DNA of 64,000 nt from Allomuricauda sp. (GTDB lineage Bacteria > Bacteroidota > Bacteroidia > Flavobacteriales > Flavobacteriaceae): the NCBI GenBank assembly GCA_050303195.1, contig JBNLBG010000006.1, positions 953 through 64,952 on the forward strand. The letters are read 5' to 3'. Within the stretch, counting starts at the first letter, position 1. Each line of letters opens with the position of its first letter. Made by a program: the position numbers and the translations under genes. Under the pieces are notes generated by a model. It saw only the letters and a list, made by a program, of their open reading frames with translations, did no database searches and was not told the origin of the DNA. Shown piece by piece: positions 41,204-57,673 of the stretch.

Positions 41204-41230
41204 TGAAAATTGTACCGTATTTTTTCAATG
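41201..41230 (-). promoter_or_regulatory. 9-bp stem hairpin in the nasA leader that includes the start codon
   Basis: cattgaaaa (41201-41209) pairs with ttttcaatg (41222-41230). On the mRNA this is CAUUGAAAA-N12-UUUUCAAUG, whose final AUG is the nasA start. The stem is AU-rich and therefore weak. Confidence 0.35.
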
Positions 41231-41244
41231 TGAAATTAGAGAAT

Positions 41245-41266
41245 TACGTATAAATACGTAGTACGA
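41245..41266. promoter_or_regulatory. tandem TACGTA core motifs upstream of nasA (TACGTAtaaaTACGTAGTACGA)
   Basis: TACGTA at 41245-41250 and 41255-41260, with starts 10 bp apart, in the 133-bp spacer between the response regulator gene and nasA. Confidence 0.5.
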
Positions 41267-41336
41267 ATATGGTAAAAGTGATGCTTAAAATCGAAGTATT
41301 GGCAATAATTACCTAGAAAAGTTGACAAATTTAAAC

Positions 41337-42026
41337 CTACACCAGCTTGTATTTGTTCGCTTTTTTGGAGAGATCGATAAGATTTTTCACTTTCATTTTC
41401 TTCATTAGATTGAAGCGATGGGTCTCAATGGTGCGTTTGCTGTTCTGTAATTTTTCAGAAATCTCCTTATTGGTATAGCCCGCCAACACCAGTTCCAGCA
41501 CTTGAAGTTCTTTGTTGGTCAGATCAAAGGGATTGTTTTTGTCTTCTTTAGAAGAAGACTTACCATTGATGCTTTTTTCTGGATTGAACAAGTTGTTCAC
41601 CAGAACATTGGATATATCCCCACTAAAATATTTTCCACCTTCCTGTACCATGTGTATGGCCTTGACAAATTCAGTCTTGCCCGTATCTTTTAACAGATAA
41701 CCGCTGGCCCCAGCCTGTACAGATTTTAGAATGTATTCTTCTGAATCGTGCATGGAAAGGATGATGCACTTGGTCTTTCTGTTGCCCACAGAGTTTAAAC
41801 GCTCCACGGTTTCAATACCGCCCAATTCGGGCATACGGATATCAATAATTAAGATATCAGGGGATTTATCATCCACCATCTTCAGGGCCTCCAAACCGTT
41901 GGAAACCTCGCCGATGACATCCAAGTCCGGTTCTTCTTCAAGTAATGCACGTATGCCATCCCGAACCAAAGAATGGTCATCGGCCAATACAATGCTAATG
42001 GTGTGTTGAAGTCCAGATTCTTGCAT
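41337..42026 (-). CDS. NarL/LuxR-family response regulator
   Basis: 229 aa. Receiver (LADDHSLVRDGI..., DILIIDIRMPELGG) and a C-terminal LuxR HTH (LTNKELQVLELVLAGYTNKEISEKLQNSKRTIETHRFNLMKKM). Confidence 0.9.
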   Translation of the reverse strand: MQESGLQHTISIVLADDHSLVRDGIRALLEEEPDLDVIGEVSNGLEALKMVDDKSPDILIIDIRMPELGGIETVERLNSVGNRKTKCIILSMHDSEEYILKSVQAGASGYLLKDTGKTEFVKAIHMVQEGGKYFSGDISNVLVNNLFNPEKSINGKSSSKEDKNNPFDLTNKELQVLELVLAGYTNKEISEKLQNSKRTIETHRFNLMKKMKVKNLIDLSKKANKYKLV

Positions 42027-42128
42027 TACACAAAAATAATCGAATTATTGAAATACCCTAAGAACAAATGAAGGGCCGCTCCAATATAAAAAGGAACAGC
42101 CCCATCAAAGCAAAGCTAATCACTTAAA

Positions 42129-43415
42129 CTATTCCGCCTTGGCTGTGGTAAAAAGTTTTGGTTTAATAATCAACATGGCCCACGCCCAGTTTTGGGAGCT
42201 GGCCGCATCGGCCTCAGCCACACCCTTAAGCTCATACATACCGTCTGCAGGAAATAGGTGCGAGTATCCAATCTTTAGGGCATATCCCTTGAACTTTTGG
42301 GTAAATACCAAATCAACCTCGGTACCCAAGGCATTTTCTCCACTTGGAAGATCTTGTTCGCCCTTAAAGTTCCAGACCTTGGCCAATAGGCCAGATTTTT
42401 CACCTAATTTGAAATTCGCACTGGCATGAATATCGAATAGCCCAACAGAGTTGGCATGGTTGCCCACATAGAAATAATCCATAAGGCCATTGAACTTGTG
42501 GTTGGTACCATATAGTGGAAAGAAGGCACCGGTTTCCCCAGCAGTTTGTCCATCATTTCCACTGATAATCTCGACTCCTGCACCAAGACCAACTGTGCTT
42601 GATGCCTTATAGCTGAGGTCGAGTCCCAACAAATAAGCTCCTTTAACATCTAAACCACCTTGTCTTTCCCCAGTTTGAAGAAATGCATTGGCTGCAAACC
42701 CAAAACTTCCTTTTTTATAGGTTAAATGTGTACCTAAGGTCTGCAAGCTGCTCAACCCATCGGCATTGTCATTTTCATCAAAGTTCTGAAAGCCATTGTT
42801 GAGCAATATCAGACTAGCTGCAAAGCTCTCCCATTTTTGTTTCAGGTAGAGCATCTGCATGGTCTTGTAGCTGAAAAAGCCCGTTGTACTATAGGCATTC
42901 CCAACGGACTGGAAACCGCTAGGGTTGTCATAATCCTGATTAAAGGCAAAAGCAAAATCAAATAAGAAATTACCTTTGGAATATTTGAGCAAGGCTGCAT
43001 CATGGTTACGGGCCTGTTGTGTCCAATCCACGCCACCCAAAATACGCTGGTCGTCATAAGAGAGTATTTGTCTACCCAATTTTGTAGACCATCCAGAGCC
43101 TAAGTCGAGTTGGGCCCATGCTTCAAACACGGCAAAGGTGTCGTTTTCATCATCGGGACGCAGCTGGCGGTTTTCACCCCAAACCATTACATCCTGAAGG
43201 CTTAGATAAAACTTATACTTTTCGGCTTGGTATCCCGCATTTAATCGCGCCCGGGTAGAAGTGGCAAAGCCTGGGTCTGCGGCGTCAGGGATTAAACTGC
43301 CAAAACCGTTTCTGTATTCGGTTCTTGGCCTGAACTCACCATCCAATGTAAATTGTGAAAAAGTGAATTGGGCTGTTAAAATAGCCAAGGCGAGTAATAC
43401 ATATTGTTTTTTCAT
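42129..43415 (-). CDS. outer-membrane beta-barrel porin (alginate-export-like family), part of the nitrate uptake operon
   Basis: 428 aa. Signal peptide, FTLDGEFRPRTEYRNGF start, alternating amphipathic strands, and an aromatic-rich C-terminus. Family assignment is from memory of similar Bacteroidetes genes. Confidence 0.6.
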   Translation of the reverse strand: MKKQYVLLALAILTAQFTFSQFTLDGEFRPRTEYRNGFGSLIPDAADPGFATSTRARLNAGYQAEKYKFYLSLQDVMVWGENRQLRPDDENDTFAVFEAWAQLDLGSGWSTKLGRQILSYDDQRILGGVDWTQQARNHDAALLKYSKGNFLFDFAFAFNQDYDNPSGFQSVGNAYSTTGFFSYKTMQMLYLKQKWESFAASLILLNNGFQNFDENDNADGLSSLQTLGTHLTYKKGSFGFAANAFLQTGERQGGLDVKGAYLLGLDLSYKASSTVGLGAGVEIISGNDGQTAGETGAFFPLYGTNHKFNGLMDYFYVGNHANSVGLFDIHASANFKLGEKSGLLAKVWNFKGEQDLPSGENALGTEVDLVFTQKFKGYALKIGYSHLFPADGMYELKGVAEADAASSQNWAWAMLIIKPKLFTTAKAE

Positions 43416-43458
43416 GATTCTTTTGAGTTTATTGGTTTAAATTTTTATTAGGTCTTCA

Positions 43459-44292
43459 TCAATGTTCCAAAAAGTCGATAAGGTGTTTGCGATACTTGTA
43501 ATAATCGTTATGTTCCAACACTGCCTTTCTGGTTCTGGGACGTTCAAAATCTATGTTTAAAACATCGCCAATTTTGGCCCGTGGGCCACTGGTCATCATA
43601 ACCACACGGTCTGCCAAGAAAATGGCTTCATCCACATCATGGGTAATCATGACCGCAGTAATTTTTTCTTTGTTCCAGATTTCTATAAGAATATCCTGAA
43701 GTTCGCCCCGTGTTAGCGAATCCAACATTCCGAAGGGTTCATCCAAGAGCAGCACCTTGGGTTTAATGGCAAAGGCCCTTGCTATACCTACACGTTGTTG
43801 CATACCTTGTGACAATTCACTGGCCTTTTTATGGAATGCTCCATCAAGGCCCACTTTGTGTAGGTAATATTTAGCAATGTCCTTTTGTTGTGATCTACTG
43901 GCATTTGGAAACACACGGTTTACCCCCAGCAATACATTTTGCAAAGCTGTCATCCAGGGCATTAAGCTCGGGGCCTGAAAAATGACCCCGCGATCTGGTC
44001 CGGGCCCTTTTATGGTACTGCCCAAAACAGCAATATCTCCTCCTGAAATAGGGTTAAGACCCGCAATCATGGAGAGCATTGTGGTCTTGCCACAACCTGA
44101 ATGCCCAATGATGGTCACAAATTCTTCCTTTAGGATCTGTAGGTTCAGATGTTCAAGGACCACATAATCGCCCTTTGGAGTGGGGTAGACCTTTTTAAGG
44201 TCCCTCAAATCCAGCATAATCCTGTCCGATGGATAAGAAATACCATTTTCATGGGGTATGTTAACGGTCTTGTTTTCTATCTGCATTTCCAT
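43459..44292 (-). CDS. nitrate/sulfonate/bicarbonate-type ABC transporter ATP-binding protein
   Basis: Walker [10 protein letters not shown], signature [14 protein letters not shown], Walker [12 protein letters not shown]. Confidence 0.85.
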
Positions 44293-44314
44293 AATGCCTG
44301 TTTTTAAAATTATA

Positions 44315-45154
44315 CTATGCTACAAAGCTCTTTGGACTCAAATCAGGAAGCTCGTAGGTTTCCTGTGATACTGCCTTGCGCTCTTCACCAATCCCCATCA
44401 AATACTCAATAATGGCATTTCTGGTTTTTTTGTACTCCGGATCATCGTTCAATGCTGTTTTGTCTCTTGGACGTTCAATATCAATTTTGAACTCAGGACC
44501 CAATGTGGCCTTAGGGCCTGGTCGTAATGGTATGATCCTGTCAGCCATATAGATGCCTTCATCCACATCATTGGTGATGAGCAGTGCAGTGCGTTGGTCT
44601 TTGCTCCAGATTTTTAGGATTTCATCTTGAAGGTTCCCCCGTGTAAGCGCATCAAGGGCTCCTAAGGGTTCATCCATAATGATCATCTCCGGATTCATGG
44701 CCAATGCCCTTGCCACGGCAACACGCTGGCGCATTCCCCCGGACAGTTCCTTGGGCCTTTTGTTGCTGGCCGGCGTAAGGTTGACCATCTCTATATATTC
44801 TGCCACACGTTTCTTGATGGCCTTTTTGTTTTCCTTAGGAAAGGCTTCCTTTACTGCCATGGCCACATTTTGCCATACACTCAACCAGGGGAGCAGGGAA
44901 TAGTTCTGAAAAATGACCCCTCTTTCATGGCTGGTATCCACTACGGGGCTTCCCTTAAAAAGTACTTCACCGCTGGTGGGTTGCAACAATCCATTGATAA
45001 GGTTTACCAAGGTTGTTTTGCCACTTCCGGTGAAACCGACAATGGCCACAAATTCACCTTCTTCAATTTTGAGGTTGATATCGGTCAGCACTTCGGTACT
45101 ATTGATGCCTTCTCCGTAGGTCTTGCAAACATTGTTCAATTCTAAATATGCCAT
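44315..45154 (-). CDS. nitrate/sulfonate/bicarbonate-type ABC transporter ATP-binding protein
   Basis: Walker [10 protein letters not shown], signature [14 protein letters not shown], Walker [13 protein letters not shown] chose the ATG at 45154 (MAYLELNNV...); an alternative ATG at 45178 would overlap the permease gene. Confidence 0.85.
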
Positions 45155-45164
45155 AATCTTACTG

Positions 45165-46271
45165 TTAAGCGGTTGCATTTTTATTGAACGATACCATATT
45201 CTGGATCACCAACATGATTCTGTCCAGCAAGAATCCTATAATCCCTATAATGAACATGGCCACAATGATCTTTGAATTTGAATCATTGGCTCCATTTTGG
45301 AACTCTTCCCAAACGAAGGAACCCAAACCGGGACTCTGTGCCAAAAGTTCAATGGCTATCAGTACCATCCAAGCTACGGAAAGTGTTATCCGAAGTCCTG
45401 TAAAAATCAAGGGCAAGGATGATGGAAGGATCACTTTGAAGACTTTTTGAAATGGCCCAAGTTTCAATACCTTGGCAACATTGATATAGTCTTTATCCAC
45501 AGAAGAAACACCCATGGCCGTGTTCACCAAGGTTGCCCACATGGAGCAAAGCCCTACACTGATGAACGATATGATAAAGGCACTATCTTGATTGGAATCC
45601 TTGGTCATGGTCTTTACGATCATAAAAACCAACAACAACCAAACTACTGGAGACACGGGTTTAAAGATTTGGATCAGCCAATTGAACGAATTCCGCAATG
45701 TTTCGCTCAGACCAATAATGATACCAATAGGGACCGCAATGACCAAGGCCAACAGAAATCCTGCAAATACAGTTTCCAAACTAGTGAAAATTTGATCCAC
45801 AAATGATGGTCTTCCGGTATAGGTAATGGGGTCTTTGCCTTCGGCAACACGCTTTTTGTTGATGGCCGCCGTTTTTTCCTTGAAAGCCAACTTGTCGGCA
45901 CTGATTTTCTTATGGTCCGCAATCAACGTATTGAAAGATTCCCAAACCTGACCGGGGGATGGTAGTGTATTGGGCTGGCAACTTATATCACCAGACAGAA
46001 TACAGGCCTCCATTTGATCGGCGGCTGCCTGTCCTTGATCAGTTAAAGCTTTCTGGATTTTGTAGTCGGCCTCAATATTGTACAATGCTTTGGCGCCCAT
46101 GTGCCATACCCCTATAAATAGGACTATGGAGATCAAGGGAACAATAAATTTTTTGAAAACTGTCTTGAACTCCAGTTTTGGGGTCTTGACCTTCAATTTG
46201 GACAGGAGTGATTTTACCACTCCCATCCATTTGATGTCATTCACTTTAGTTGCAGTAATGCTTTGCTTCAT
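45165..46271 (-). CDS. nrtB: nitrate ABC transporter permease
   Basis: 368 aa. BPD-transport domain with a long periplasmic insert. EAA-like region [24 protein letters not shown]. Confidence 0.8.
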
Positions 46272-46283
46272 GATTTTTACTGT

Positions 46284-47669
46284 TTAAAGTGAGGAATCGT
46301 CCTTGTTCCCAATTTCAAAGCTGTTGATATAGCCTATGGGATCTTTGGCATCGTATGCGTTTCCATCGATGAAATCTGTAGTTGCAGGTTTGTAACCATC
46401 CGTTTCTGGAATATCCGCTGCGGGAATATGCCCTTCGGCTACCAAAAGCTTGGCCGCTTTTTTCCAGATATCAGGACGGTAGATGTCTTTAATAGTTTCT
46501 TCATACCAAGATGCTGGTTTTGGCTCAGGAATTTGGCCCCACCTTCTCATCTGGGTCAAGAACCAAATACCATCAGAATAAAATGGATAGGTAGCATTGT
46601 ACTTATAGAATACATTAAAGTCGGGCATGGACCGTTTATCTCCCTTTTCAAATTCAAAGGTTCCAGTCATTGAGTTGGCCAAAACAACTTCATCGGCTCC
46701 CACATATTGGGGCATGGATAGAATTTTAACAGCTTCTGCTCTATTGCCTGGCTCATCCAACCATTTTCCGGCACGAATCAACGCTTTGGTCACAGCAACA
46801 GCAGTGTTTGGATTTTCCTCAACAAACTTTTTGGTCATTACAAAGACCTTTTCAGGATTGTTTTTCCAAATGTCATAATTGGTGGTCACGGGAACTCCTA
46901 TTCCTTTAAATACGGCTTGTTGGTTCCAGGGCTCACCTACACAGTACCCATAAATGGTCCCAGCTTCTAAAGTAGCTGGCATCTGTGGAGGTGGCGTAAC
47001 CGATAACAAAACTTCGGCATCAATTTGTCCCTGCACATTATCGGCGGTGTACATTCCGGGATGGATTCCGGCCGCTGCTAACCAATATCTAATTTCGTAG
47101 TTGTGGGTAGATACCGGGAACACCATTCCCATTTTAAAAGGTTTTCCGCTGTTCTTATACGAGGAGATTACTGGTTTTAGGGCATCTGCCTTTATGGGGT
47201 GAACGGGTTTGCCATCTGCATCTTTGGGAACATTGGTTTTCATTTTGGACCATACATCGTTGGATACTGTTATGCCATTGCCATTCAGGTCCATTGAAAA
47301 TGGTGTGACCAGCTGGGCTTGTCGGCCAAATCCGGCTCCAGCTGCAATGGGTTGTCCGGCCAACATGTGCGAGCCATCCAATTGCCCGTCAATAACACGG
47401 TCGAGTACATTTTTCCAGTTGGATTGTGCCTCAACCGAAACAAAAAGACCTTCATCCTCGAAGAAGCCTTTTTCCTTGGCGATGGCCAAGGGAGCCATAT
47501 CGGTAAGTTTGATAAAGCCGAAGGTCAATTGAGGTTTTTCAATTTCCAGTGAAGTTTTAGGTACGTTTGCTTGGGCAGTTTCTGCTGTTTTTTTCTCAGT
47601 TTTCCCTCCGCACGCCATAAGGACTGCTGAGAGTAACCATGCGATTGATTTTAAAGTGATGTTTTTCAT
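46284..47669 (-). CDS. nrtA: CmpA/NrtA family nitrate ABC transporter substrate-binding lipoprotein
   Basis: 461 aa. Lipobox [32 protein letters not shown] and [13 protein letters not shown] are NrtA/CmpA signatures. Confidence 0.85.
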
Positions 47670-47683
47670 AATATTAAGCTTTC

Positions 47684-47697
47684 TACGTATTAGTACT
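47684..47697. promoter_or_regulatory. TACGTA core with flanking arm (TACGTAtTAGTACT) just upstream of nrtA
   Basis: Core at 47684-47689, 14 nt from the nrtA ATG (47669). The arm TAGTACT parallels TAATACT in the narK and nirB sites. Confidence 0.45.
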
Positions 47698-47881
47698 TAT
47701 TTATAGCAAATGTATACTGAGTAATGGAACTATTTTATGGGAAAGCCCATGGCTGCATATCTTTTTAATACATGAACTGTTATGTTACAAACCATGGAAA
47801 AACCTGTCAAAAAACATATTATTCTTTTAACTGACTGATTTATATTTAGATATGTATGGTTGAGGTTTACTGAGTCTGAGG

Positions 47882-47892
47882 TACGTAGTACT
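47882..47892. promoter_or_regulatory. TACGTA core (TACGTAGTACT) in the distal part of the nrtA upstream region
   Basis: Core at 47882-47887. The same TACGTAGTAC decamer occurs upstream of nasA (41255-41264). Flanked by TACTGAG repeats. Confidence 0.4.
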
Positions 47893-48073
47893 GAGAAGCT
47901 CTTCCAGTGCCACACTTATCCATTACAGGCACTAAAATTTGAGCTCATTAAGAATAATGGGGCGAATAAAAATCATTGCCTTAACCGTCCAGAAAGGTTC
48001 GGAATATTCTAATTGATAATGTAGTTGTTGGGAAAAAGTTATTGCCGAAAAGAGGTGACTTTGATATACTATA

Positions 48074-48838: not shown

Positions 48839-48848
48839 CAGGGTCTAA

Positions 48849-50267
48849 TTATTTTGACTTAACATAAACAGGCTTGGGTTGTCCGGCTTTTCCAATTTTC
48901 TCTTCTCTTTCATCGGCAGTTGAGAATTTAATGGCCAATGACATAAATGCCGTTACCACTACAAATGCACCTATAATAAAGTATCCGCTAGAAACGGCTG
49001 AAGATGCAGCTGAGGCTTGGGCCGCTTTTACAGCCTCTTCACCCAATGAAGCATTGACCTTTATTGCGGCTGTTTCTGCCAGGGCCGATTTCGATTTCAA
49101 CAAAAGGGCGGCCAAAAAAGCCCCTACATTACCCCCAGCTCCCACAATACCTGATATGGACCCAATTGCTTTCTTATTGATAAAGGGAACCACAGAGAAC
49201 GTTGCTCCTTCCGCCATTTGAACGGTTAAACTGAATGCCACCAAAAATAGTATTCCAAAAGCTATACTGGTGGTCACAGAAAAAATGGAGAGCATGATGC
49301 CCTCAACGCCCAAGATAAGTGCCAAGAAAAGTACACGCCCTCTCAGTCCTTTCATTTTTCCAAACCGATCACCAAAGAAACCGCCCAAGGTTCTGGCAAA
49401 AATATTCATCAAGGCAAATGACAGAACCAAGTTACCAGCGGTTGTTCTATTAAGGTGAAATGTGTTTTGGAGATAATCGTCCATAGTTCCATATACCGTA
49501 AGTTCCATTCCAAAGCAAGCGGCATAGACTATGAACAAAATCCACACCCTATAATCTGTAAGGGTTTTCAAGAATGGAATCTCATCTTTCTTTTTTATGG
49601 GCAATTCTCCCTTTTCCTTTAACTCGGAAAAATTTCCTTCGGGCGTATCCTGAGTGAAGAAATAATAAACAATCCCCATGACAAAACAGATGATACCTGC
49701 TATGACCATGGAATAACGCCAAGCTATTTCATCTGCCACACCAAAGCTCACCACAGCGGCAGCGATCAAGGGCATTCCTAAGCGGTTGGCCCCTCCACCG
49801 AGGTTTCCCCAACCTGCGGAAGTAGCATTGGCGGTTCCCACAATATTTGGAGCAAACATAATTGAGGTATGAAATTGGGTAATTACAAAAGAGGCTCCAA
49901 TAAATCCGATAAAAAGGCGACATACTAAAAATTGCAAAGGTGTTTGCACAAAACCAATAAGAATAACAGGTAGTGCCCCAATGGTCAACAAAAAGGTATA
50001 ACATAATCTTGGACCGTATTTATCACATAGTTTACCGATAAGAAGTCGTGCAAAAACGGTTCCTGTTACCGCTAAAATGACCGAATTCCATTTTTGGTTC
50101 GGTGTCAATCCCAAATCCCTTACTACATCCGGCATAAACGGAACAATACCGAACCAAGCAAAGAAGCAGGTGAAAAATGCTATTGAGGTAATCCAAAAAG
50201 TTCTGGTTGGAATACTTTTAAAGTTTAATAGATTTAAAGCAGTGGCTTTTTGAGATGTAACGGACAT
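48849..50267 (-). CDS. narK: NarK/NasA family MFS nitrate/nitrite transporter
   Basis: I chose the ATG at 50267; the track start at 50291 is TTG. 12 TM. GWGNLGGG and GIVGAGGNVG are the two nitrate-signature (NS) motifs. Confidence 0.85.
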   Translation of the reverse strand: MSVTSQKATALNLLNFKSIPTRTFWITSIAFFTCFFAWFGIVPFMPDVVRDLGLTPNQKWNSVILAVTGTVFARLLIGKLCDKYGPRLCYTFLLTIGALPVILIGFVQTPLQFLVCRLFIGFIGASFVITQFHTSIMFAPNIVGTANATSAGWGNLGGGANRLGMPLIAAAVVSFGVADEIAWRYSMVIAGIICFVMGIVYYFFTQDTPEGNFSELKEKGELPIKKKDEIPFLKTLTDYRVWILFIVYAACFGMELTVYGTMDDYLQNTFHLNRTTAGNLVLSFALMNIFARTLGGFFGDRFGKMKGLRGRVLFLALILGVEGIMLSIFSVTTSIAFGILFLVAFSLTVQMAEGATFSVVPFINKKAIGSISGIVGAGGNVGAFLAALLLKSKSALAETAAIKVNASLGEEAVKAAQASAASSAVSSGYFIIGAFVVVTAFMSLAIKFSTADEREEKIGKAGQPKPVYVKSK

Positions 50268-50296
50268 GATACTTAGCTTTGTTTGAAACAAAAATA

Positions 50297-50321
50297 AGTA
50301 TTAATACGTATTTTTACGTAC
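50297..50321. promoter_or_regulatory. AGTATTA arm plus tandem TACGTA cores upstream of narK
   Basis: AGTATTAaTACGTAtttttACGTAC. Cores at 50305-50310 and 50315-50320, 10 bp apart. The proximal core lies 8 nt from a perfect -7 element TATTTTTG read on the minus strand (50296-50289), 21 nt before the ATG at 50267. Confidence 0.55.
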
Positions 50322-50454
50322 TTTCTAAAGCCAAACTATAGATTGACGCCGATTTTTATGAAGTTCATAATCTAAGGGAAGAAAATAATGGAAATGAAAA
50401 AAATATTCCTTTTTTTATTCGGAATTGAGAAATTAAAATAGGTTGATTGTCTAT

Positions 50455-51219
50455 CTAAAAGGAAGAGTGCAAAACCCGCATAACTTCTTCTTCAAAAAAG
50501 GAAGGGTGGTCTGCCACCACATCACCCACAACAATGATTCCCGGTTTTGATACATCAATGGATTCAAGCATGGCTTTTGCATTGTTCAATGTGTCGGTAA
50601 TGCAGGATTCTGTGGCTAACGTTCCATTTTGAATTACTGCTATCGGAGTCATTCCGCTTCGGTATTGCCCTATTTTACAGGTGATTTCCGCGAATCTTCG
50701 TATGCCCATCAGTATAATAAGTGTTGCTGAAGATTGGGAGGCCAAGCTTAAATCTTCTGAAAATCCACCGTCTTTTCTCGTTCCTGTTACTACCCAAAAA
50801 CTGCTGCTAACCCCTCTTTTGGTCACGGGAATACCCTGGCTTTCGGGTACAGCAATGGCACTGCTAATCCCAGGAACCACATCAATGGGTATTCCAAAAG
50901 ATTCCACATAATCTATTTCTTCGGAGGCTCTACCAAACACAAAGGGGTCACCTCCTTTTAACCGTACGGCATGGCCATATTGAAACGCACTTTCCACAAT
51001 CAACCGGTTAATTTCATCTTGGCTATGACTGTGCTTTGAGCATCTTTTACCTACGTATATTTTCGGTATGCCAAAGTCAACCTCAGCAAGTAGGTCTTTA
51101 TTGGTCAAGGCGTCGTACAAAACAACATCTGCTGACTTCAAAGTCCTCAAACCCCTTACTGTTATTAGGTCTGGACTACCTGGCCCTGCTCCCACCAAAC
51201 TCACTTTAGCTTCCATCAT
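50455..51219 (-). CDS. cobA: uroporphyrinogen-III C-methyltransferase (siroheme branch)
   Basis: 254 aa. VGAGPGSPDLITVRGLRTLKSADVVLYDAL and RLKGGDPFVFGR are SUMT motifs. Confidence 0.9.
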   Translation of the reverse strand: MMEAKVSLVGAGPGSPDLITVRGLRTLKSADVVLYDALTNKDLLAEVDFGIPKIYVGKRCSKHSHSQDEINRLIVESAFQYGHAVRLKGGDPFVFGRASEEIDYVESFGIPIDVVPGISSAIAVPESQGIPVTKRGVSSSFWVVTGTRKDGGFSEDLSLASQSSATLIILMGIRRFAEITCKIGQYRSGMTPIAVIQNGTLATESCITDTLNNAKAMLESIDVSKPGIIVVGDVVADHPSFFEEEVMRVLHSSF

Positions 51220-51271
51220 ATCGCGGTATTTTGATTTTCAATAAAAATTTTTATGAATCTGACAACAAAAA

Positions 51272-51277
51272 TACGTA
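51272..51277. promoter_or_regulatory. TACGTA core overlapping a minus-strand -7 element for cobA
   Basis: The minus strand reads TACGTATTTTTG. TATTTTTG (51273-51266) is a perfect TAnnTTTG, 46 nt before the cobA ATG (51219). Confidence 0.45.
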
Positions 51278-51294
51278 ATTATTTTTAAATAATC

Positions 51295-51326
51295 AGTATT
51301 AAATTACGTAATAATACTTAGTTTTG
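51295..51326 (+). promoter_or_regulatory. nirB promoter block: AGTATTAaatTACGTAaTAATACT followed by the -7 element TAGTTTTG
   Basis: Core at 51305-51310, 8-nt spacer, -7 element at 51319-51326, ATG at 51351. 20 of 22 nt are identical to the narK promoter block. Confidence 0.55.
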
Positions 51327-51340
51327 AAATGTATTTCAAA
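51323..51340. promoter_or_regulatory. 8+2+8 palindrome TTTGAAATgtATTTCAAA overlapping the nirB -7 element and the expected transcription start
   Basis: Perfect arms at 51323-51330 and 51333-51340. The position suggests an operator. Confidence 0.35.
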
Positions 51341-51350
51341 TTTCATGTGT

Positions 51351-53870
51351 ATGAAAACTGTAATTGTAATAGGTAACGGTATGGTAGGGTATAAGTTCTG
51401 TGAGAAGTTCAGGGCTCATCCTGCAAATTCTTCATTCAGGCTTCTTGTTTTTGGTGAAGAACCTAGACCTGCATACGACCGGGTGCACCTAAGCGAGTTT
51501 TTTGAAAATCAAGATGCCAAAGCATTGGAATTGGCACCCGCTTCTTGGTACAAAGACAATAACATTGAACTTATTACAAATCAAAGAGTTACAGACATTA
51601 AGAGTGACTCCAAAGAAATACACACGATATCAGGTGATTCCTTTTCGTATGACCACTTGGTACTTGCTACAGGTTCTGTTCCTTTTGTGCCTCCTATCAA
51701 GGGTGTTGAAAAGGAAGGGGTTTTTGTGTACAGAACCATTGAAGACCTTGAAGGCATGTTGGCTTATGCTGCCCAGATAAAAGCCATTAAGCCAAACGGT
51801 AAAGCGGCTATACTGGGAGGTGGACTCCTAGGGCTAGAAGCGGGAAAAGCTGTTTTGGATATGGGATTGGAACCTCATGTAGTGGAATTTGCACCAAAAC
51901 TTATGCCCAGACAATTGGATGCGCGCAGTAGTAATGTATTACAACTAAAATTGGAATCCATGGGCATGCAGATTCACTTGGGCAAAGCCACCAACCAAAT
52001 ATTGGGTGATAAGGTCATAGAAGGAATGGATTTTGGTGAAGATGACCAATTGGATGTAGATATGCTCATTATTTCCGCAGGAATTCGTCCAAGGGACGAG
52101 CTTGGAAAAACCTGCGGATTGGAAATGGGTACGCGTGGCGGAATTGTAGTAAACAACAAAATGGAAACCTCCGAAAAAGATATATATGCCATAGGAGAGG
52201 TAGCCCTTTACAACCACATGATATATGGGCTGGTGGCTCCTGGTTACGAGATGGCCGATGTAGCCGTGAACCAGATTCTGGGAAATCCAGAAACTATGAT
52301 GCCAGATGAAATCGACATGTCTACTAAACTAAAATTAATGGGGGTTGATGTAGCCAGTTTTGGAACACCCTATATGCCCGCGGACAAAGGCCTTTCCATT
52401 ATTTTTGAGAACAAGACCAAGTTCCTCTATAAGCGCATCAATGTTAGTCACGATGGTAAAACATTGTTAGGCGGCATTTTGGTTGGGGATGCAACTGACT
52501 ACAACATTTTGCACCAGATGTACCTAAACAATATGCCTTTGCCCGACAATGCTGAGGAATTGATTGTGGGCTCCCGCGGTGAAGGTGGCTCCGCTTTTGG
52601 CAGTGCCATGGATTTACCGGATACGGCCCAAATCTGTTCCTGTGAAAGCATCAGCAAAGGAGATATCTGCAGTTCCCTTATTGAAGGTAAATGCAATTCC
52701 TTAAAAGAAGTTGTCGGTCTTACCAAAGCCACAACAGGATGTGGAGGTTGCAAACCCATGGTAACCGATTTGGTCAACGAAACTCTTAAATCCCTTGGAA
52801 AAGAAGTTAAAGATGTTATTTGTGAGCATTTTGAATACACCCGCCAAGAATTGTATGGCATAATAAAGGTCAAAAAAATAACAACCTATGATGAAGCTTT
52901 GGACAAATGTGGAAAAGGAGATGGTTGTGAGGTTTGCAAACCAGCATTGGCATCCATATTTGCCACCATATATAATGATACTGCCAACAAGGAAGAGGTT
53001 ATTCAAGATTCCAATGATCGATTCTTGGCCAACATCCAAAGAAATGGGTCCTATTCAGTGGTACCACGGATACCAGGTGGAGAAATTACACCGGAAAAAT
53101 TAATTGTCATTGGAGAAGTGGCCAAAGAATATAATCTGTATACCAAGATTACCGGCGGACAGCGTATAGACCTTTTTGGGGCCGAACTGAACGACCTTCC
53201 CGCCATATGGAAAAAATTAATCGATGCCGGTTTTGAAAGTGGTCACGCTTATGGTAAATCATTACGTACCGTAAAAAGCTGTGTGGGTTCCACTTGGTGC
53301 CGCTACGGAATGGATGAAAGCGTAAGTTTTGCCATTGAGCTTGAAGATCGCTATAAAGGATTGCGATCTCCCCATAAACTTAAAGGAGGGGTCTCTGGCT
53401 GCATTCGCGAATGTGCCGAAGCCCGGGGCAAAGACTTTGGTGTAATTGCGGTAGAGGGTGGTTGGAACCTTTATGTCTGTGGAAATGGGGGCGCTACTCC
53501 CAAACATGCACTCTTGCTCGCCGAGCAAATAGATAACGAAACCGTTATAAAATATTTGGATCGCTTTTTAATGTACTATATCCGTACCGCTGCACCTTTA
53601 ATGCGTACAGCCGCATGGTTGGAGAAGTTGGAAGGCGGAATAGAACAGCTTAAAAAAATTGTGGTGGATGACAGCTTAAACATCGCCGAAGAGCTGGAGA
53701 TAGAAATGCAATCCTTGGTCGATAAATACGAATGTGAATGGAAACAAGCTGTGGAAAATGAAGAAATCAAAAAACGTTTCTCACATTTTGTAAATACCGA
53801 TGACAGGGATGATAATATAGTTTTTGTGCCCATGCGTGAACAAAAAATGCCAGAACCATGGACCAACTAA
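51351..53870 (+). CDS. nirB: NAD(P)H-dependent assimilatory nitrite reductase large subunit
   Basis: I chose the ATG at 51351 (MKTVIVIGNGMVGYKF); the track start at 51324 is TTG. FAD/NAD Rossmann folds, BFD-like CSCE...GCGGCKP, and a siroheme/4Fe-4S region SCVGSTWCRYG ... GCIRECAEA. Confidence 0.95.
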   Translation: MKTVIVIGNGMVGYKFCEKFRAHPANSSFRLLVFGEEPRPAYDRVHLSEFFENQDAKALELAPASWYKDNNIELITNQRVTDIKSDSKEIHTISGDSFSYDHLVLATGSVPFVPPIKGVEKEGVFVYRTIEDLEGMLAYAAQIKAIKPNGKAAILGGGLLGLEAGKAVLDMGLEPHVVEFAPKLMPRQLDARSSNVLQLKLESMGMQIHLGKATNQILGDKVIEGMDFGEDDQLDVDMLIISAGIRPRDELGKTCGLEMGTRGGIVVNNKMETSEKDIYAIGEVALYNHMIYGLVAPGYEMADVAVNQILGNPETMMPDEIDMSTKLKLMGVDVASFGTPYMPADKGLSIIFENKTKFLYKRINVSHDGKTLLGGILVGDATDYNILHQMYLNNMPLPDNAEELIVGSRGEGGSAFGSAMDLPDTAQICSCESISKGDICSSLIEGKCNSLKEVVGLTKATTGCGGCKPMVTDLVNETLKSLGKEVKDVICEHFEYTRQELYGIIKVKKITTYDEALDKCGKGDGCEVCKPALASIFATIYNDTANKEEVIQDSNDRFLANIQRNGSYSVVPRIPGGEITPEKLIVIGEVAKEYNLYTKITGGQRIDLFGAELNDLPAIWKKLIDAGFESGHAYGKSLRTVKSCVGSTWCRYGMDESVSFAIELEDRYKGLRSPHKLKGGVSGCIRECAEARGKDFGVIAVEGGWNLYVCGNGGATPKHALLLAEQIDNETVIKYLDRFLMYYIRTAAPLMRTAAWLEKLEGGIEQLKKIVVDDSLNIAEELEIEMQSLVDKYECEWKQAVENEEIKKRFSHFVNTDDRDDNIVFVPMREQKMPEPWTN

Positions 53871-54259
53871 ACACAAATAATATGGAAACACTATTTCAAC
53901 AGTACGCTACTGTTGCTTTGGAAAAGGTAACCGTTTGGTTTAAAGCCTGCCATGAGCGGGACATACCAGAAAATGGTGGAGCATGTATTAAATATAAGGA
54001 CAAGCAAATAGCCGTATATCATTTTAAACGAAAACAAAAATGGTATGCCTGCCAAAACCTATGTCCCCACAAAATGGAAATGGTTTTGAGCCGTGGTATG
54101 ATCGGTGACGCGGAAGGGATAGCAAAAGTAGCCTGCCCCATGCACAAAAAAACATTCTCTTTGGAAACAGGAGAAAACCTCAACGGAGATTTGCCCTCAA
54201 TTGCCACTTTTCCCGTAAAAGTGGAAAATGGCTTTGTGTATATTGGTTTTTCTGAATAG
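53858..54259 (+). CDS. nirD: nitrite reductase small subunit (Rieske-fold)
   Basis: 133 aa. NLCPHKMEMVLSRG ... ACPMHKKTFSLETGE follows the NirD pattern. An alternative start at 53882 avoids the 13-nt overlap with nirB. Confidence 0.85.
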   Translation: MDQLNTNNMETLFQQYATVALEKVTVWFKACHERDIPENGGACIKYKDKQIAVYHFKRKQKWYACQNLCPHKMEMVLSRGMIGDAEGIAKVACPMHKKTFSLETGENLNGDLPSIATFPVKVENGFVYIGFSE

Positions 54260-54279
54260 CTTTAGAAAAATCATAAATC

Positions 54280-54870
54280 ATGGGCAAATCCAAAAAGCTT
54301 TTGGAAGCATTTCAATTATTTGATAAGGCCAATGCACAAGACCCCAATAAAGAAGTTTTTGAGGGTAAGGAATACGCCAAGGAACTTTTGTATGCACAGC
54401 GTATGACAGAAACCTTGAAGGAGTTTGAACCCAATGCCTCCGAAGCACTGCAGCTTACCGCGCGTTGCCAGCACATTTGCCGTTGGGAAATACCCCGGGA
54501 ATCCTATGAAATGAACCGAGTAGGCTATTTAAAATGGAGGCAGGACCTCAAAAAGTTTCACGCGGAAAAAGCAGGTGCCCTATTGAAAAAAGTAGGCTAC
54601 GATCAGGAAATTATAGACCGGGTCAGTTTTTTGCTCTTGAAAAAACAATTGAAGAAGGATGAAGAGACCCAAACTTTGGAAGATGTAATCTGCTTGGTTT
54701 TTTTAAAATATTACTACGAACCTTTCCTAATAAAGCACGATGATGACAAAATGATTTCCATTTTACAGAAAACTTGGAAAAAAATGTCGCCGAAGGGCCA
54801 TGCAGCCGCATTGGCACTATCTTTTTCCGATAGAGGTTCTGCCTTGGTCTCAAAAGCACTATCGGATTAG
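54280..54870 (+). CDS. DUF4202-like protein of unknown function
   Basis: 196 aa. RCQHICRWEIPRESYEMNRVGYLKWRQDLKKFHAEKAGALL resembles DUF4202 as I recall it. The family name is not verified. Confidence 0.5.
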   Translation: MGKSKKLLEAFQLFDKANAQDPNKEVFEGKEYAKELLYAQRMTETLKEFEPNASEALQLTARCQHICRWEIPRESYEMNRVGYLKWRQDLKKFHAEKAGALLKKVGYDQEIIDRVSFLLLKKQLKKDEETQTLEDVICLVFLKYYYEPFLIKHDDDKMISILQKTWKKMSPKGHAAALALSFSDRGSALVSKALSD

Positions 54871-54875
54871 CACAC

Positions 54876-54881
54876 TACGTA
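54876..54881. promoter_or_regulatory. single TACGTA core 17 nt upstream of the sensor kinase ATG
   Basis: cacacTACGTAatttgg lies in the 27-bp spacer after the DUF4202 gene. Confidence 0.3.
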
Positions 54882-54897
54882 ATTTGGATGTAAAGCA

Positions 54898-56733: not shown

Positions 56734-56744
56734 ATAAAACGGCT

Positions 56745-57122: not shown

Positions 57123-57195
57123 TCTTCAAAAGTTTAATGGGTATCATCTAACCATCAAGAATCTCAAAAGGAAAAATTGATATTGGTAAATAGCA

Positions 57196-57627: not shown

Positions 57628-57673
57628 GATAGTTTTATCACAACAAAGATTAAAAGACATTTTTATCCTTTTT

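What the first reader, a model, noticed from the sequence alone, without database searches (positions are those of the whole stretch)
41245..54881. TACGTA-core motif strongly enriched in the upstream spacers of the nitrate/nitrite assimilation operons
I count nine TACGTA hexamers in the five upstream spacers of this cluster:
- nasA: 41245 and 41255
- nrtA: 47684 and 47882
- narK: 50305 and 50315
- cobA/nirB divergent region: 51272 and 51305
- sensor kinase: 54876

These spacers total about 880 bp. A rough hand estimate from base composition predicts about 0.3 occurrences. Two sites are tandem with a 10-bp, one-helical-turn repeat (nasA, narK). Several carry a flanking arm (AGTAyTA / TArTACT) one nt from the core, and two share TACGTAGTAC.

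I spotted only a few TACGTA elsewhere: 18420, 53263 and 56865 inside genes, and 62476 at the stop codon of the PNPOx-like gene. I did not count exhaustively. The motif is a candidate operator for the pathway regulator. The NarL-type regulator (41337-42026) with its NarX-like kinase (54898-56733) is the obvious but unproven candidate. The motif does not match the E. coli NarL heptamer TACYYMT.
Basis: seen in the sequence. Interest (0 to 1): 0.7.

Follow-up and report, generated by a model that had tools for sequence, protein, structure and literature searches.

The report
Conserved operator of flavobacterial nitrate-assimilation genes
The TACGTA hexamers are halves of a 16-bp palindrome that sits on the promoters of the nitrate/nitrite uptake and reduction genes in this bacterium and its relatives, and is most likely the binding site of the cluster's own nitrate-sensing two-component regulator, a control circuit I found no description of for this phylum.

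Summary
Nine of the window's 16 TACGTA lie in 876 bp of nas/nrt/narK/cobA-nirB/kinase spacers (expected 0.1-0.3). None lie in about 5.9 kb of other intergenic DNA.

The functional unit is a 16-bp palindrome, TAMGTA-N4-TACKTA. It has 5 perfect copies in the window (expected 0.01), all at the nasA, nrtA, narK and nirB promoters. Helically phased single hexamers accompany it.

In 80 orthologous loci from Flavobacteriaceae and Cytophagales, 200 of 233 palindromes lie directly upstream of cluster genes. The hexamer before the kinase gene is not conserved.

The best candidate binder is the cluster's response regulator:
- Its recognition helix (RTIETHRFN) resembles FixJ/SsrB, not E. coli NarL.
- FixJ's SELEX site is GTAMGTAG.
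- A Thr/Val change at the NarL-Val189 position tracks a C/A change in the half-site in 45 of 45 loci.
- The FNR-type regulator next door is absent from many loci that keep the motif.

The palindromes overlap the Bacteroidetes -7 box or the transcription start. This geometry suggests promoter occlusion, that is repression relieved by nitrate. The sign of regulation is inferred, not shown.

This is a new member of a known kind, and moderately interesting.

The parts
41245..41260 (.). nasA operator: perfect palindrome TACGTATAAATACGTA, 42-57 nt upstream of the nasA ATG (41203, - strand)
   Evidence: A palindrome is present in 29 of 42 orthologous nasA upstream regions. A -7-like box follows at offset +14 (TAATTCTC, 41239-41246, - strand) or +22 (TAATTTCA, 41231-41238, - strand).
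47684..47699 (.). nrtA operator: TACGTATTAGTACTTA (TAAGTACTAATACGTA on the gene strand). It ends 14 nt before the nrtA ATG (47669) and starts 7 nt downstream of the -7 box.
   Evidence: A palindrome is present in 66 of 73 nrtA upstream regions. In 44 of them a perfect TAnnTTTG box starts 14-17 nt upstream of the palindrome, which places the palindrome at about +4 to +19.
47707..47714 (-). Predicted sigma-A -7 box of nrtA (TACATTTG), preceded by a degenerate hexamer TCAGTA (47715-47720). Relatives have TACGTA at that position.
   Evidence: Read from the sequence. Conserved as TACGTA-TACATTTG in Maribacter, Zobellia and Cellulophaga loci. The box consensus and its position (-12 to -5) come from PMC9723704.
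47882..47887 (.). Distal single hexamer, 183 bp upstream of the nrtA palindrome
   Evidence: Relatives carry one or two TACGTA at a comparable distance upstream of nrtA. Its role was not tested; an auxiliary site is possible.
50295..50320 (.). narK operator: three hexamers at 10-bp spacing (TAAGTA 50295, TACGTA 50305, TACGTA 50315), forming two overlapping palindromes
   Evidence: 17 of 22 narK upstream regions carry a palindrome. Triple arrays also occur in L029 and L072.
50289..50296 (-). Predicted -7 box of narK (TATTTTTG). It shares its TA with the proximal hexamer. The 'TTG start codon' at 50291 is part of this box, so the real start is probably the ATG at 50267.
   Evidence: Read from the sequence. 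The +14 register recurs in 7 narK promoters and 60 promoters overall.
51305..51320 (.). nirB operator: TACGTAATAATACTTA
   Evidence: 31 of 32 nirB upstream regions have a palindrome, and 28 of those 31 have a perfect or 1-mismatch box at offset +14.
51319..51326 (+). Predicted -7 box of nirB (TAGTTTTG), overlapping the palindrome by 2 nt. The TTG 'start' at 51324 lies inside it, so the real start is probably the ATG at 51345.
51272..51277 (.). Single conserved hexamer, 33 bp from the nirB palindrome. It shares its TA with the predicted cobA -7 box (TATTTTTG, 51266-51273, - strand).
   Evidence: The 31-33 bp spacing class has 68 cases. 18 of the 19 cobA upstream regions that carry a palindrome have a box in the same register.
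54876..54881 (.). Hexamer in the 27-bp DUF4202-kinase spacer. Probably not part of the system.
   Evidence: No TACGTA occurs in any orthologous DUF4202-HK spacer.
41337..42026 (-). Response regulator (receiver domain plus GerE/LuxR helix-turn-helix), recognition helix SKRTIETHRFNLMKKM. Proposed binder.
54898..56733 (+). NarX/NarQ-like sensor kinase of the Bacteroidetes type: periplasmic PilJ/P-box domain ([14 protein letters not shown]), PAS, HisKA_3, HATPase, and no HAMP or GAF domain
   Evidence: The class is described in PMC8199190.
48074..48838 (-). FNR-type regulator (CX2CX4C plus Cys127), probably co-transcribed with narK. It is a regulon member and the rival candidate binder.

Best explanation
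The TACGTA hexamers are half-sites of a 16-bp palindromic operator, TAMGTA-(TTAA-like N4)-TACKTA. The proposal is that a dimer of the cluster-encoded FixJ/NarL-family response regulator (41337-42026) binds it. That regulator would be controlled by the NarX/NarQ-like nitrate/nitrite sensor kinase (54898-56733). Extra single hexamers at 10, about 21, about 32 and about 43 bp, all whole helical turns, would allow cooperative binding.

The regulon covers:
- nasA (with a rubredoxin-domain gene);
- nrtABCD and the porin;
- narK and the FNR-type gene;
- nirBD-DUF4202-kinase;
- cobA;
- in relatives, also a globin/reductase set, hemA and moeA.

The palindrome covers about -26 to -11 (sharing the TA of the -7 box TAnnTTTG), about +4 to +19, or about -37 to -22. 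I therefore infer that the bound regulator excludes sigma-A RNA polymerase. On this reading it is a repressor, and the nitrate/nitrite signal relieves repression by lowering its phosphorylation.

Shown: the motif, its palindromic nature, its conservation, and its fixed register to the -7 box.

Inferred: the identity of the binder (about 0.7), the repressive sign (about 0.6 given that binder), and the polarity of the kinase.
For: Motif and conservation:
- The window has 5 palindromes against 0.01 expected, all at four promoters.
- In 80 loci, TACGTA occurs at 4.8 per kb in cluster spacers, 0.53 in other spacers and 0.20 in coding DNA.
- 233 palindromes occur in 1.55 Mb. 200 lie directly upstream of cluster genes. 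Most of the rest lie upstream of globin, Tll0287-like, hemA or moeA genes.
- Half-site combinations are almost only inverted: TAAGTA..TACTTA 70 times, the reverse order 2 times.
- A motif-first metagenome scan put about 19 of 120 exact hits next to nas-cluster genes.

Binder:
- The DNA-binding domain is closest to SsrB, EsrB and FixJ.
- The FixJ helix is RTVEVHRANVM; the helix here is RTIETHRFNLM.
- FixJ SELEX gave GTAMGTAG, and its fixK site is TAAGTAATTTCCCTTA (PMC4999443).
- SsrB uses an 18-bp 7-4-7 palindrome and tolerates single half-sites (PMC2837388).
- Loci whose regulator has x-E-T in the helix use C at half-site position 3 (23 of 23 with C >= A). Loci with x-E-V use A (22 of 22 with A >= C). 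The variable residue aligns with NarL Val189, a base-contacting residue.
- 24 loci have the regulator and 78 palindromes but no FNR-type gene.
- An unrelated GerE protein with helix RTVETHRCNLM sits beside two TACGTA palindromes in metagenome contig L195.

Sign:
- Perfect TAnnTTTG boxes sit at fixed offsets from the palindrome: +14 (60 cases), -14 to -17 (44 cases, all nrtA) and +25/26.
- The box spans -12 to -5 in flavobacteria (PMC9723704).
- The regulator's own promoter in group B has sites on both sides of the box.
Against: - No binding or expression data exist.
- The Thr/Val versus C/A covariation corresponds to a single branch of the regulator tree, so it is one evolutionary event.
- 25 loci carry palindromes and the FNR-type gene but no regulator within 10 kb. 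L065 has a full nas set without regulator or kinase nearby. Those genomes must encode the regulator elsewhere, which I could not check.
- NarL's base-contact residues are not conserved, so specificity is argued only by analogy to FixJ.
- Repression by a phosphorylated regulator requires the kinase to be switched off by nitrate. That is the opposite of E. coli NarX/NarQ.
- The promoters show no -33 element, which could instead mean they depend on an activator. Control promoters show little -33 signal either.
- The -7 boxes and transcription starts are predicted, not mapped.
Confidence: 0.45

Rival explanations
1. The same operator and the same response regulator, but the phosphorylated regulator is an activator. 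Nitrate turns the kinase on, as in E. coli NarX/NarQ. The regulator then binds and helps sigma-A polymerase at promoters that lack a -33 element.
For: - The P-box of the sensor is conserved, and the kinase belongs to the nitrate/nitrite-sensing class.
- FixJ, SsrB and NarL are mainly activators.
- The fixed +14 register to the -7 box in 60 promoters looks stereospecific.
- No -33 TTG is seen in 91 such promoters.
- The +25/26 class resembles a site that replaces the -35 element.
- The kinase gene lies in a regulated operon, which would give positive feedback.
Against: - A helix-turn-helix on -16 to -11 would occupy the DNA that sigma region 2/3 must contact.
- At most nrtA promoters the palindrome lies downstream of the box, at about +4 to +19 (44 of 66), where no known activator works.
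- NarL activates from -43.5, -44.5 and -77.5.
- Many of the -7 boxes are already perfect consensus.
Confidence: 0.27
2. The palindrome is bound by the FNR-type [4Fe-4S] regulator encoded between narK and nrtA. The site would be read as a 5-N4-5 box, AMGTA-N4-TACKT, with G and C at the positions they occupy in TTGAT-N4-ATCAA.
For: - The geometry is compatible with an FNR box.
- The Glu and Arg of the FNR recognition helix are kept (TTEEQVIR).
- The gene sits next to nrtA in 46 loci and usually has a palindrome on its own promoter.
- 25 loci have this gene but no response regulator nearby.
Against: - 24 loci keep 78 palindromes without this gene.
- Orthologues of at least 69% identity come from many genera, but from no named Muricauda or Flagellimonas species; only one 'uncultured Allomuricauda sp.' entry appears. 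The response regulator has 85-90% orthologues in many of those species.
- Its recognition helix does not change where the half-site changes from C to A.
- Triple hexamer arrays and functional-looking single hexamers do not suit an obligate dimer.
- An oxygen sensor is an odd master switch for an aerobic assimilatory pathway.
Confidence: 0.08
3. An unlinked transcription factor binds the site. Candidates are a global nitrogen regulator, an NsrR-like Rrf2 repressor, or a paralogous GerE-family protein. The cluster's two-component system would then act elsewhere or indirectly.
For: - Promoter-overlapping operators and the regulon content (globin, nirB, narK) recall NsrR-type repressors.
- Several complete clusters lack a nearby regulator.
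- Other GerE proteins with a similar helix exist.
Against: - The window's Rrf2 gene (57196-57660) faces the nos genes, has no TACGTA in its spacer, and is absent from the 80 loci.
- All 233 palindromes in the loci map to nitrate-related genes, and none to amtB or glnA-type genes. The loci are biased towards nrtA, so this is weak evidence.
- The covariation with the cluster regulator's helix would be a coincidence.
Confidence: 0.15
4. The motif is not a protein operator. It is either an extended -7 promoter element (TACGTAnnTTTG) read by the sigma factor, an RNA hairpin in the leader, or a compositional accident.
For: - The hexamer shares its TA with the -7 box in 60 or more promoters.
- The nrtA palindrome is probably transcribed and could form a 6-bp hairpin.
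Against: - The palindrome also occurs 10 nt upstream of the box and downstream of it, and as distal copies in helical phase.
- Only inverted half-site pairs occur.
- Most copies lie upstream of the predicted transcription start.
- Rfam finds nothing.
- Chance is excluded.
Confidence: 0.03

Closest known systems
FixJ binding sites (Sinorhizobium meliloti fixK/nifA; SELEX classes GTAMGTAG and GTAGTTTCCC; fixK site TAAGTAATTTCCCTTA)
   Same: - Same half-site core, TA(A/C)GTA.
- Same footprint of about 16-18 bp with an imperfect palindrome.
- Very similar recognition helix: RTVEVHRANVM against RTIETHRFNLM.
- FixJ has the x-E-V helix and uses TAAGTA. The x-E-V clade here also prefers TAAGTA.
   Different: - The partner kinase here is a NarX/NarQ-like nitrate sensor, not the haem-PAS oxygen sensor FixL.
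- The regulator scores far below the NCBIfam FixJ cut-off (78.9 against 255 bits).
- FixJ sites lie at -31 to -69 and activate. These sites overlap the -7 box or the transcription start.
- These sites are near-perfect palindromes.
E. coli NarL/NarP '7-2-7' sites (TACYYMT-NN-AKRRGTA)
   Same: - A nitrate-sensing kinase paired with a GerE-type regulator.
- A 16-bp inverted repeat with TAC...GTA at the outer ends.
- TACGTAT matches the heptamer at 6 of 7 positions.
- Extra single half-sites occur.
- NarL both activates and represses, depending on site position.
   Different: - The base-contacting Lys188, Val189 and Lys192 are Glu, Thr and Phe here.
- Position 4 is an invariant G, not a pyrimidine.
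- The regulator scores below the NarL cut-off (140.9 against 250 bits).
- The kinase lacks HAMP and GAF domains and has a PAS domain.
- The targets are assimilatory genes, not respiratory ones.
SsrB 18-bp 7-4-7 'flexible palindrome' (Salmonella SPI-2)
   Same: - SsrB is the closest solved DNA-binding domain (2jpc, helix KTVETHRMNMM).
- Half-sites are separated by 4 bp.
- Single half-sites are functional.
- The distance to the transcription start is variable.
   Different: - The SsrB half-site is ACmTTA and does not align base for base with TACKTA.
- SsrB is an activator and anti-silencer of horizontally acquired virulence genes.
FNR/CRP-family boxes (TTGAT-N4-ATCAA) and NtcA (GTA-N8-TAC)
   Same: - Palindromes of similar length.
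- The G and C positions of AMGTA-N4-TACKT coincide with those of the FNR box.
- An FNR-type gene lies in the cluster.
- NtcA also controls nitrate assimilation and has GTA/TAC arms.
   Different: - The sequence differs from TTGAT.
- Canonical FNR boxes are not enriched in the window.
- NtcA spacing is N8, not N4.
- The FNR-type gene is dispensable for motif presence.

Membership tests
Operator of a NarL/FixJ (GerE/LuxR-type) response regulator | Inverted repeat of 6-7-bp half-sites whose centres lie about 10 bp apart (16-18 bp in total) | tested here: met
   TAMGTA-N4-TACKTA. Inverted half-site combinations dominate (225 of 229). The window has 5 copies against 0.01 expected.
Operator of a NarL/FixJ (GerE/LuxR-type) response regulator | A cognate regulator (receiver plus GerE helix-turn-helix) and its kinase are genetically linked to the target genes | tested here: met
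   The regulator (41337-42026) and the HisKA_3 kinase (54898-56733) lie in the cluster. They are linked in 45 of 80 loci.
Operator of a NarL/FixJ (GerE/LuxR-type) response regulator | Sites are conserved in orthologous promoters | tested here: met
   Regions carrying a palindrome: nirB 31 of 32, cobA 19 of 20, nrtA 66 of 73, narK 17 of 22, nasA 29 of 42. 200 of 233 palindromes lie upstream of cluster genes.
Operator of a NarL/FixJ (GerE/LuxR-type) response regulator | The regulator physically binds the site, and regulation depends on the site | not testable with these tools
   Needs EMSA, footprinting, ChIP or DAP-seq, and reporter mutagenesis.
E. coli-type NarL 7-2-7 site | Heptamer TACYYMT in a 7-2-7 arrangement | tested here: inconclusive
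   The geometry is met: TACGTAT-AA-ATACGTA. The heptamer matches at 6 of 7 positions, but position 4 is an invariant G rather than Y.
E. coli-type NarL 7-2-7 site | The regulator is a NarL orthologue that keeps the base-contact residues Lys188, Val189 and Lys192 | tested here: not met
   The aligned residues are Glu, Thr and Phe (contacts from PMC10853779). The NCBIfam NarL score is 140.9 against a cut-off of 250.
FixJ-type site | Half-site TA(A/C)GTA as in the SELEX class GTAMGTAG, and a FixJ-like recognition helix | tested here: met
   PMC4999443. Helix RTIETHRFNLM against RTVEVHRANVM of 1x3u.
FixJ-type site | The regulator is a FixJ orthologue paired with the oxygen sensor FixL | tested here: not met
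   The NCBIfam FixJ score is 78.9 against a cut-off of 255. The partner kinase has a NarX/NarQ-like P-box sensor.
FNR/CRP box | TTGAT-N4-ATCAA-like consensus, and the regulator co-occurs with the sites | tested here: not met
   Canonical boxes are not enriched: 79 found against 70 expected. 24 loci have palindromes but no FNR-type gene. Orthologues are absent from named Muricauda and Flagellimonas species.
NtcA site | GTA-N8-TAC centred at about -41.5 | tested here: not met
   The spacing between GTA and TAC is N4. The sites overlap the -7 box.
Known structured RNA (Rfam) | A match to a covariance model | tested here: not met
   No match with E <= 1 in 40500-58000.

The most novel reading that the evidence does not exclude
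Across Flavobacteriaceae and Cytophagales, nitrate assimilation, together with its cofactor-synthesis and NO-detoxification genes, is switched by a HAMP-less NarX/NarQ-like nitrate sensor. On this reading its FixJ-like regulator works with inverted logic: it sits on the -7 box or the transcription start as a repressor and is released when nitrate is sensed. A single recognition-helix residue (Thr or Val, at the NarL Val189 position) would set the C or A preference in the half-site. This would be the first cis-regulatory code for nitrogen assimilation in Bacteroidota, and a natural case of a nitrate two-component system acting by de-repression.
Probability: 0.4. Interest if true: 0.7.

Novelty: new member of a known kind. 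Interest (0 to 1): 0.55.

Why it matters
Marine Flavobacteriaceae are major consumers of algal organic matter, and their use of nitrate affects coastal nitrogen budgets. I found no description of how Bacteroidota control nitrate assimilation. The full-text searches returned nothing on this motif or this regulator. The review of nitrate-sensing kinases lists the role of the Bacteroidetes class as an open question.

The finding supplies:
- a precise operator;
- a defined regulon: nasA, nirBD, nrtABCD, narK and cobA, plus globin/reductase, hemA and moeA in relatives;
- a specific candidate regulator.

The circuit can therefore be tested directly. The palindrome can also be used to predict nitrate-responsive genes in genomes and metagenomes.

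The overlap with the -7 box raises a mechanistic question about how GerE-type regulators work on Bacteroidetes sigma-A promoters. The Thr/Val to C/A correlation suggests a simple, testable recognition rule within the FixJ-like subfamily.

Tried and rejected
- Rfam search of 40500-58000 at E <= 1 found nothing. An RNA element was dropped.
- The sigma-70 promoter and terminator scan is not applicable to Bacteroidetes promoters and was uninformative.
- Canonical FNR boxes with up to 2 mismatches occur at chance level.
- Palindrome searches with 1-2 mismatches gave no further credible sites in the window.
- The E. coli NarL contact residues are not conserved. The 7-2-7 match is therefore not used as evidence of homology in recognition.
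- The PDB sequence search with the kinase sensor domain gave no hit.
- The top-120 homologue list for the regulator stops at 73% identity. It could not show whether genomes with regulator-less loci encode the regulator elsewhere.
- I looked for a -33 TTG element to decide between activation and repression. It is absent in 91 promoters but also weak in 73 control promoters, so the result is inconclusive.
- The window's Rrf2 protein was considered as the binder. It was rejected because it is linked to the nos genes, is not conserved in the loci, and has no site in its own spacer.
- The literature searches found no bacterial nitrate paper that mentions the TACGTA motif and nothing on nitrate-assimilation control in Flavobacteria.

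Full report
**1. The observation**

The window is AT-rich DNA (41% GC) from a Muricauda/Flagellimonas-like flavobacterium. Its NrtA protein is 98% identical to that of Muricauda sp. CAU 1633.

An exhaustive search finds 16 TACGTA, against 4.7 expected from dinucleotide shuffles. Three coding copies were missed: 29020, 38049 and 51052.

Gene calls and Pfam/NCBIfam scans confirm the layout:

| Coordinates (strand) | Gene |
|---|---|
| 36227-37666 (-) | rubredoxin-domain gene |
| 37670-41203 (-) | fused nasA |
| 41337-42026 (-) | NarL/FixJ-family response regulator |
| 42129-43415 (-) | porin |
| 43459-47669 (-) | nrtDCBA |
| 48074-48838 (-) | FNR-type regulator |
| 48849-50267 (-) | narK |
| 50455-51219 (-) | cobA |
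| from 51345 (+) | nirB, nirD, DUF4202 |
| 54898-56733 (+) | NarX/NarQ-like kinase |
| after the kinase | DUF7009, an Rrf2 gene, and a nos cluster |

The five spacers total 876 bp and hold 9 hexamers.
- The order-0 expectation is 0.28 and the order-1 expectation is 0.09 (Poisson P about 1.5e-15).
- The other 5868 bp of intergenic DNA hold none (Fisher P = 1e-8).
- Coding DNA holds 7 copies in 57 kb.

**2. The real unit**

The window has five perfect matches against 0.01 expected:
- nasA, 41245-41260;
- nrtA, 47684-47699;
- narK, 50295-50310 and 50305-50320, which together make three phased hexamers;
- nirB, 51305-51320.

Allowing 1-2 mismatches adds only chance hits. Three hexamers stand alone: 47882, 51272 and 54876.

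**3. Conservation**

Using NrtA as a probe, I fetched 80 loci of about 21 kb from Flavobacteriaceae and some Cytophagales. I annotated them by tblastn with the window's proteins.

| Measure | Result |
|---|---|
| TACGTA density in spacers upstream of cluster genes | 4.8 per kb |
| TACGTA density in other spacers | 0.53 per kb |
| TACGTA density in coding DNA | 0.20 per kb |
| nirB upstream regions with a site | 32 of 32 |
| cobA upstream regions with a site | 20 of 20 |
| narK upstream regions with a site | 20 of 22 |
| nrtA upstream regions with a palindrome | 66 of 73 |
| nasA upstream regions with a palindrome | 29 of 42 |

Intra-operon spacers (nrtB, nrtC, nrtD, nirD, DUF4202) and every kinase-proximal spacer have none. 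The window's 54876 hexamer is therefore probably fortuitous.

Distances between neighbouring hexamers peak at 10 bp (75 cases), 31-33 bp (68), 20-22 bp and 43 bp. These are whole helical turns.

Of 229 hexamer-N4-hexamer pairs, 225 are inverted combinations. TAAGTA..TACTTA occurs 70 times and the reverse order twice. The spacer prefers TTAA. This is the signature of a symmetric protein dimer.

In total, 233 palindromes occur in 1.55 Mb. 200 lie directly upstream of cluster genes. Most of the others precede genes that fit a nitrate regulon:
- a single-domain globin;
- a Tll0287-like protein;
- an FAD/NAD/2Fe-2S reductase;
- hemA;
- moeA.

A globin-reductase pair co-expressed with assimilatory nitrate reductase has a precedent in Bradyrhizobium. 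This rests on the abstract of PMC4724949 as listed.

A search that started from the motif rather than from a gene gave the same picture. I scanned metagenome contigs for TAMGTATTAATACKTA. About 19 of the 120 exact hits lie next to nas, nrt, nir, narK, regulator or FNR-type genes. The remainder are mostly single hits in DNA of very varied GC content.

**4. Position on the promoter**

Flavobacterial sigma-A promoters have a -7 box, TAnnTTTG, at -12 to -5. Their median 5' UTR is 24 nt (PMC9723704).

Perfect boxes occur at fixed offsets from the palindrome start:
- **+14**, sharing the final TA. There are 60 cases, and this is the usual arrangement at nirB, nasA, narK and the FNR-type gene. The palindrome then covers about -26 to -11.
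- **-14 to -17.** There are 44 cases, and this is the usual arrangement at nrtA. The palindrome then covers about +4 to +19.
- **+25/26.** The palindrome then covers about -37 to -22.

In the window the predicted boxes are:

| Gene | Box | Coordinates (strand) |
|---|---|---|
| nirB | TAGTTTTG | 51319-51326 (+) |
| cobA | TATTTTTG | 51266-51273 (-) |
| narK | TATTTTTG | 50289-50296 (-) |
| nrtA | TACATTTG | 47707-47714 (-) |

The cobA box shares its TA with the single hexamer at 51272. The narK box shares its TA with the proximal hexamer.

The 'TTG start codons' that the mechanical ORF list gives for nirB (51324) and narK (50291) are the TTG of these boxes. The true starts are probably the ATGs at 51345 and 50267.

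**5. Which protein binds**

Two regulators are encoded in the cluster.

*The response regulator*
- It has a receiver domain and a GerE helix-turn-helix.
- Over its full length its best solved relative is NarL. But NarL's base-contacting Lys188, Val189 and Lys192 (PMC10853779) are Glu, Thr and Phe here.
- The DNA-binding domain alone is closest to SsrB, EsrB and FixJ. The helix here is RTIETHRFNLM, FixJ's is RTVEVHRANVM and SsrB's is KTVETHRMNMM.
- FixJ SELEX gave GTAMGTAG, and its fixK site is the 16-mer TAAGTAATTTCCCTTA (PMC4999443). This is the same TA(A/C)GTA half-site.
- SsrB uses an 18-bp palindrome with a 4-bp spacer and tolerates single half-sites (PMC2837388).
- Across the 45 loci that encode the regulator, helix x-E-T goes with C at half-site position 3 (23 of 23 with C >= A). 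Helix x-E-V goes with A (22 of 22 with A >= C).
- The variable residue aligns with NarL Val189. FixJ, which is x-E-V, uses TAAGTA.
- Caveat: the x-E-V regulators form one clade, so this covariation is a single evolutionary event.

*The FNR-type regulator*
- It has a conserved CX2CX4C motif plus the Cys122-equivalent cysteine, so it is probably an Fe-S sensor.
- Its recognition helix (TTEEQVIR) does not vary with the half-site.
- 24 loci keep 78 palindromes without it.
- Its orthologues (>= 69% identity) come from many genera but from no named Muricauda or Flagellimonas species. Only one 'uncultured Allomuricauda sp.' entry appears. The response regulator, by contrast, has 85-90% orthologues in many of those species.

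*Independent hints from the metagenome scan*
- In contig L195, a GerE protein that is 27% identical overall but has the helix RTVETHRCNLM lies beside two TACGTA palindromes.
- In contig L167, a LuxR-type regulator (helix KTVEVHIEH) lies beside a triple hexamer array.

I therefore assign the operator to the response regulator with a probability of about 0.7. The main weakness is that 25 loci have palindromes but no regulator within 10 kb. These include L065, which has a complete nas set. I could not search the rest of those genomes.

**6. The signal and the sign of regulation**

The kinase has a P-box ([14 protein letters not shown]) with the critical arginine, followed by a PAS domain, HisKA_3 and HATPase. 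It belongs to the HAMP-less and GAF-less Bacteroidetes class of nitrate/nitrite-sensing kinases, whose role is listed as an open question (PMC8199190).

By analogy, nitrate should activate the kinase, and the phosphorylated regulator should activate the genes.

The geometry argues otherwise.
- A helix-turn-helix on -16 to -11 competes with sigma for the TA of the box.
- At most nrtA promoters the palindrome lies downstream of the box.
- The same gene carries the site at different core-promoter positions in different genomes.
- In group B, the regulator's own promoter has sites on both sides of the box.
- E. coli NarL activates from -43.5 or further upstream.

I therefore favour occlusion, at about 0.6 given the binder. 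On this reading the DNA-binding form represses, and nitrate or nitrite relieves repression. That requires the HAMP-less kinase to be switched off, or turned into a phosphatase, by its ligand. This step is pure inference.

The -33 region gave no help. There is no TTG in 91 regulated promoters, but there is little in 73 controls either.

In the window and its close relatives, the regulator gene has its own terminator hairpin and a perfect -7 box without any hexamer. It is therefore probably expressed constitutively there.

**7. Comparison with known systems, and novelty**

The element works like the operators of NarL/FixJ-family regulators. It is closest to FixJ in half-site and helix, to SsrB in the 4-bp spacer and its flexibility, and to NarL 7-2-7 sites in signal and outer geometry.

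It is not a member of the E. coli NarL site family, because the contact residues and heptamer position 4 fail. The regulator is not a FixJ orthologue, because the partner kinase and the family scores fail.

The full-text searches returned no description of this motif or of nitrate-assimilation control in Flavobacteria.

It is a new member of a known kind. It is a solid, directly testable regulon prediction for a phylum whose nitrogen regulation is largely unknown. It also poses one unusual mechanistic question: a nitrate two-component system whose operator sits on the core promoter.

Noticed in passing
window 50289-50296 and 51319-51326: The TTG 'start codons' that the mechanical ORF list gives for narK (50291) and nirB (51324) are the TTG of predicted -7 boxes (TATTTTTG and TAGTTTTG). 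The true starts are probably the ATGs at 50267 and 51345.
   Followed up: partly
window 48074-48838 (-): The Crp/Fnr-family protein is FNR-like. It has an N-terminal CX2CX4C motif (conserved in 38 of 46 orthologues) plus the Cys122-equivalent cysteine, and it lies 10 bp after narK. Orthologues come from many genera, but apart from one 'uncultured Allomuricauda sp.' entry none comes from a named Muricauda or Flagellimonas species. The narK-fnr pair therefore looks like an insertion into this genome's cluster. Its own target sites were not found.
   Followed up: partly
window 47700-48073; L062 6224-9747: The 404-bp spacer between the FNR-type gene and nrtA is unusually long. At the same place, relatives carry five genes (globin, Tll0287-like, unknown, FAD/NAD/2Fe-2S reductase, multihaem cytochrome c) preceded by the same palindrome. 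A block conserved among relatives (window about 47792-47822, gene strand aatatgttttttgacaggttttt) is unexplained.
   Followed up: partly
window 42027-42128 (-): The porin-regulator spacer holds an 11-bp-stem hairpin (-24 kcal/mol, z = -2.3) followed by a U-rich stretch. A perfect -7 box (TATTTTTG) sits just before the regulator's ATG. This looks like a terminator plus a separate, hexamer-free promoter. The pattern is conserved in the Muricauda-like loci.
   Followed up: partly
window 57661-57743: The spacer between the Rrf2 gene and the cytochrome c/fasciclin/nosZ genes contains the palindrome ATGATTTATATCAT (57674-57687). It could be the site of the Rrf2 or the FNR-type regulator for the nos genes.
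   Followed up: no
window 54280-54870 and 56745-57122: DUF4202 and DUF7009 genes flank the sensor kinase. In most loci they are conserved in the same order: nirD, DUF4202, kinase, DUF7009. Their function is unknown, and they may be accessory to sensing or to nitrite reduction.
   Followed up: no
L058 14435-15361 (also L063): Cyclobacteriaceae nas clusters that lack the kinase and regulator encode a 308-aa protein with only the PilJ/NarX-like sensor domain, between nrtD and nasA.
   Followed up: partly
L091 1344-1394 and L135 1741-1791: Two unrelated metagenome contigs share a pair of palindromes (TACGTATTGATACGTA and TACGTATTAATACGTA) 35 bp apart, with no nitrate genes nearby. One is next to a GIY-YIG-domain ORF. 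This is probably the operator of a different system.
   Followed up: no
L195 1822-2511 and L167 1842-2669: GerE/LuxR-family genes in unrelated contigs lie next to TACGTA palindrome arrays. The L195 protein has no recognisable receiver domain but has the helix RTVETHRCNLM, which is nearly that of the window's regulator.
   Followed up: partly
window 36227-37666 (-): A 479-aa protein with a C-terminal rubredoxin domain and a weak nitrite/sulfite-reductase ferredoxin-like match follows nasA. It is conserved with nasA in most loci, so it may be an electron-transfer partner of the fused nitrate reductase.
   Followed up: no
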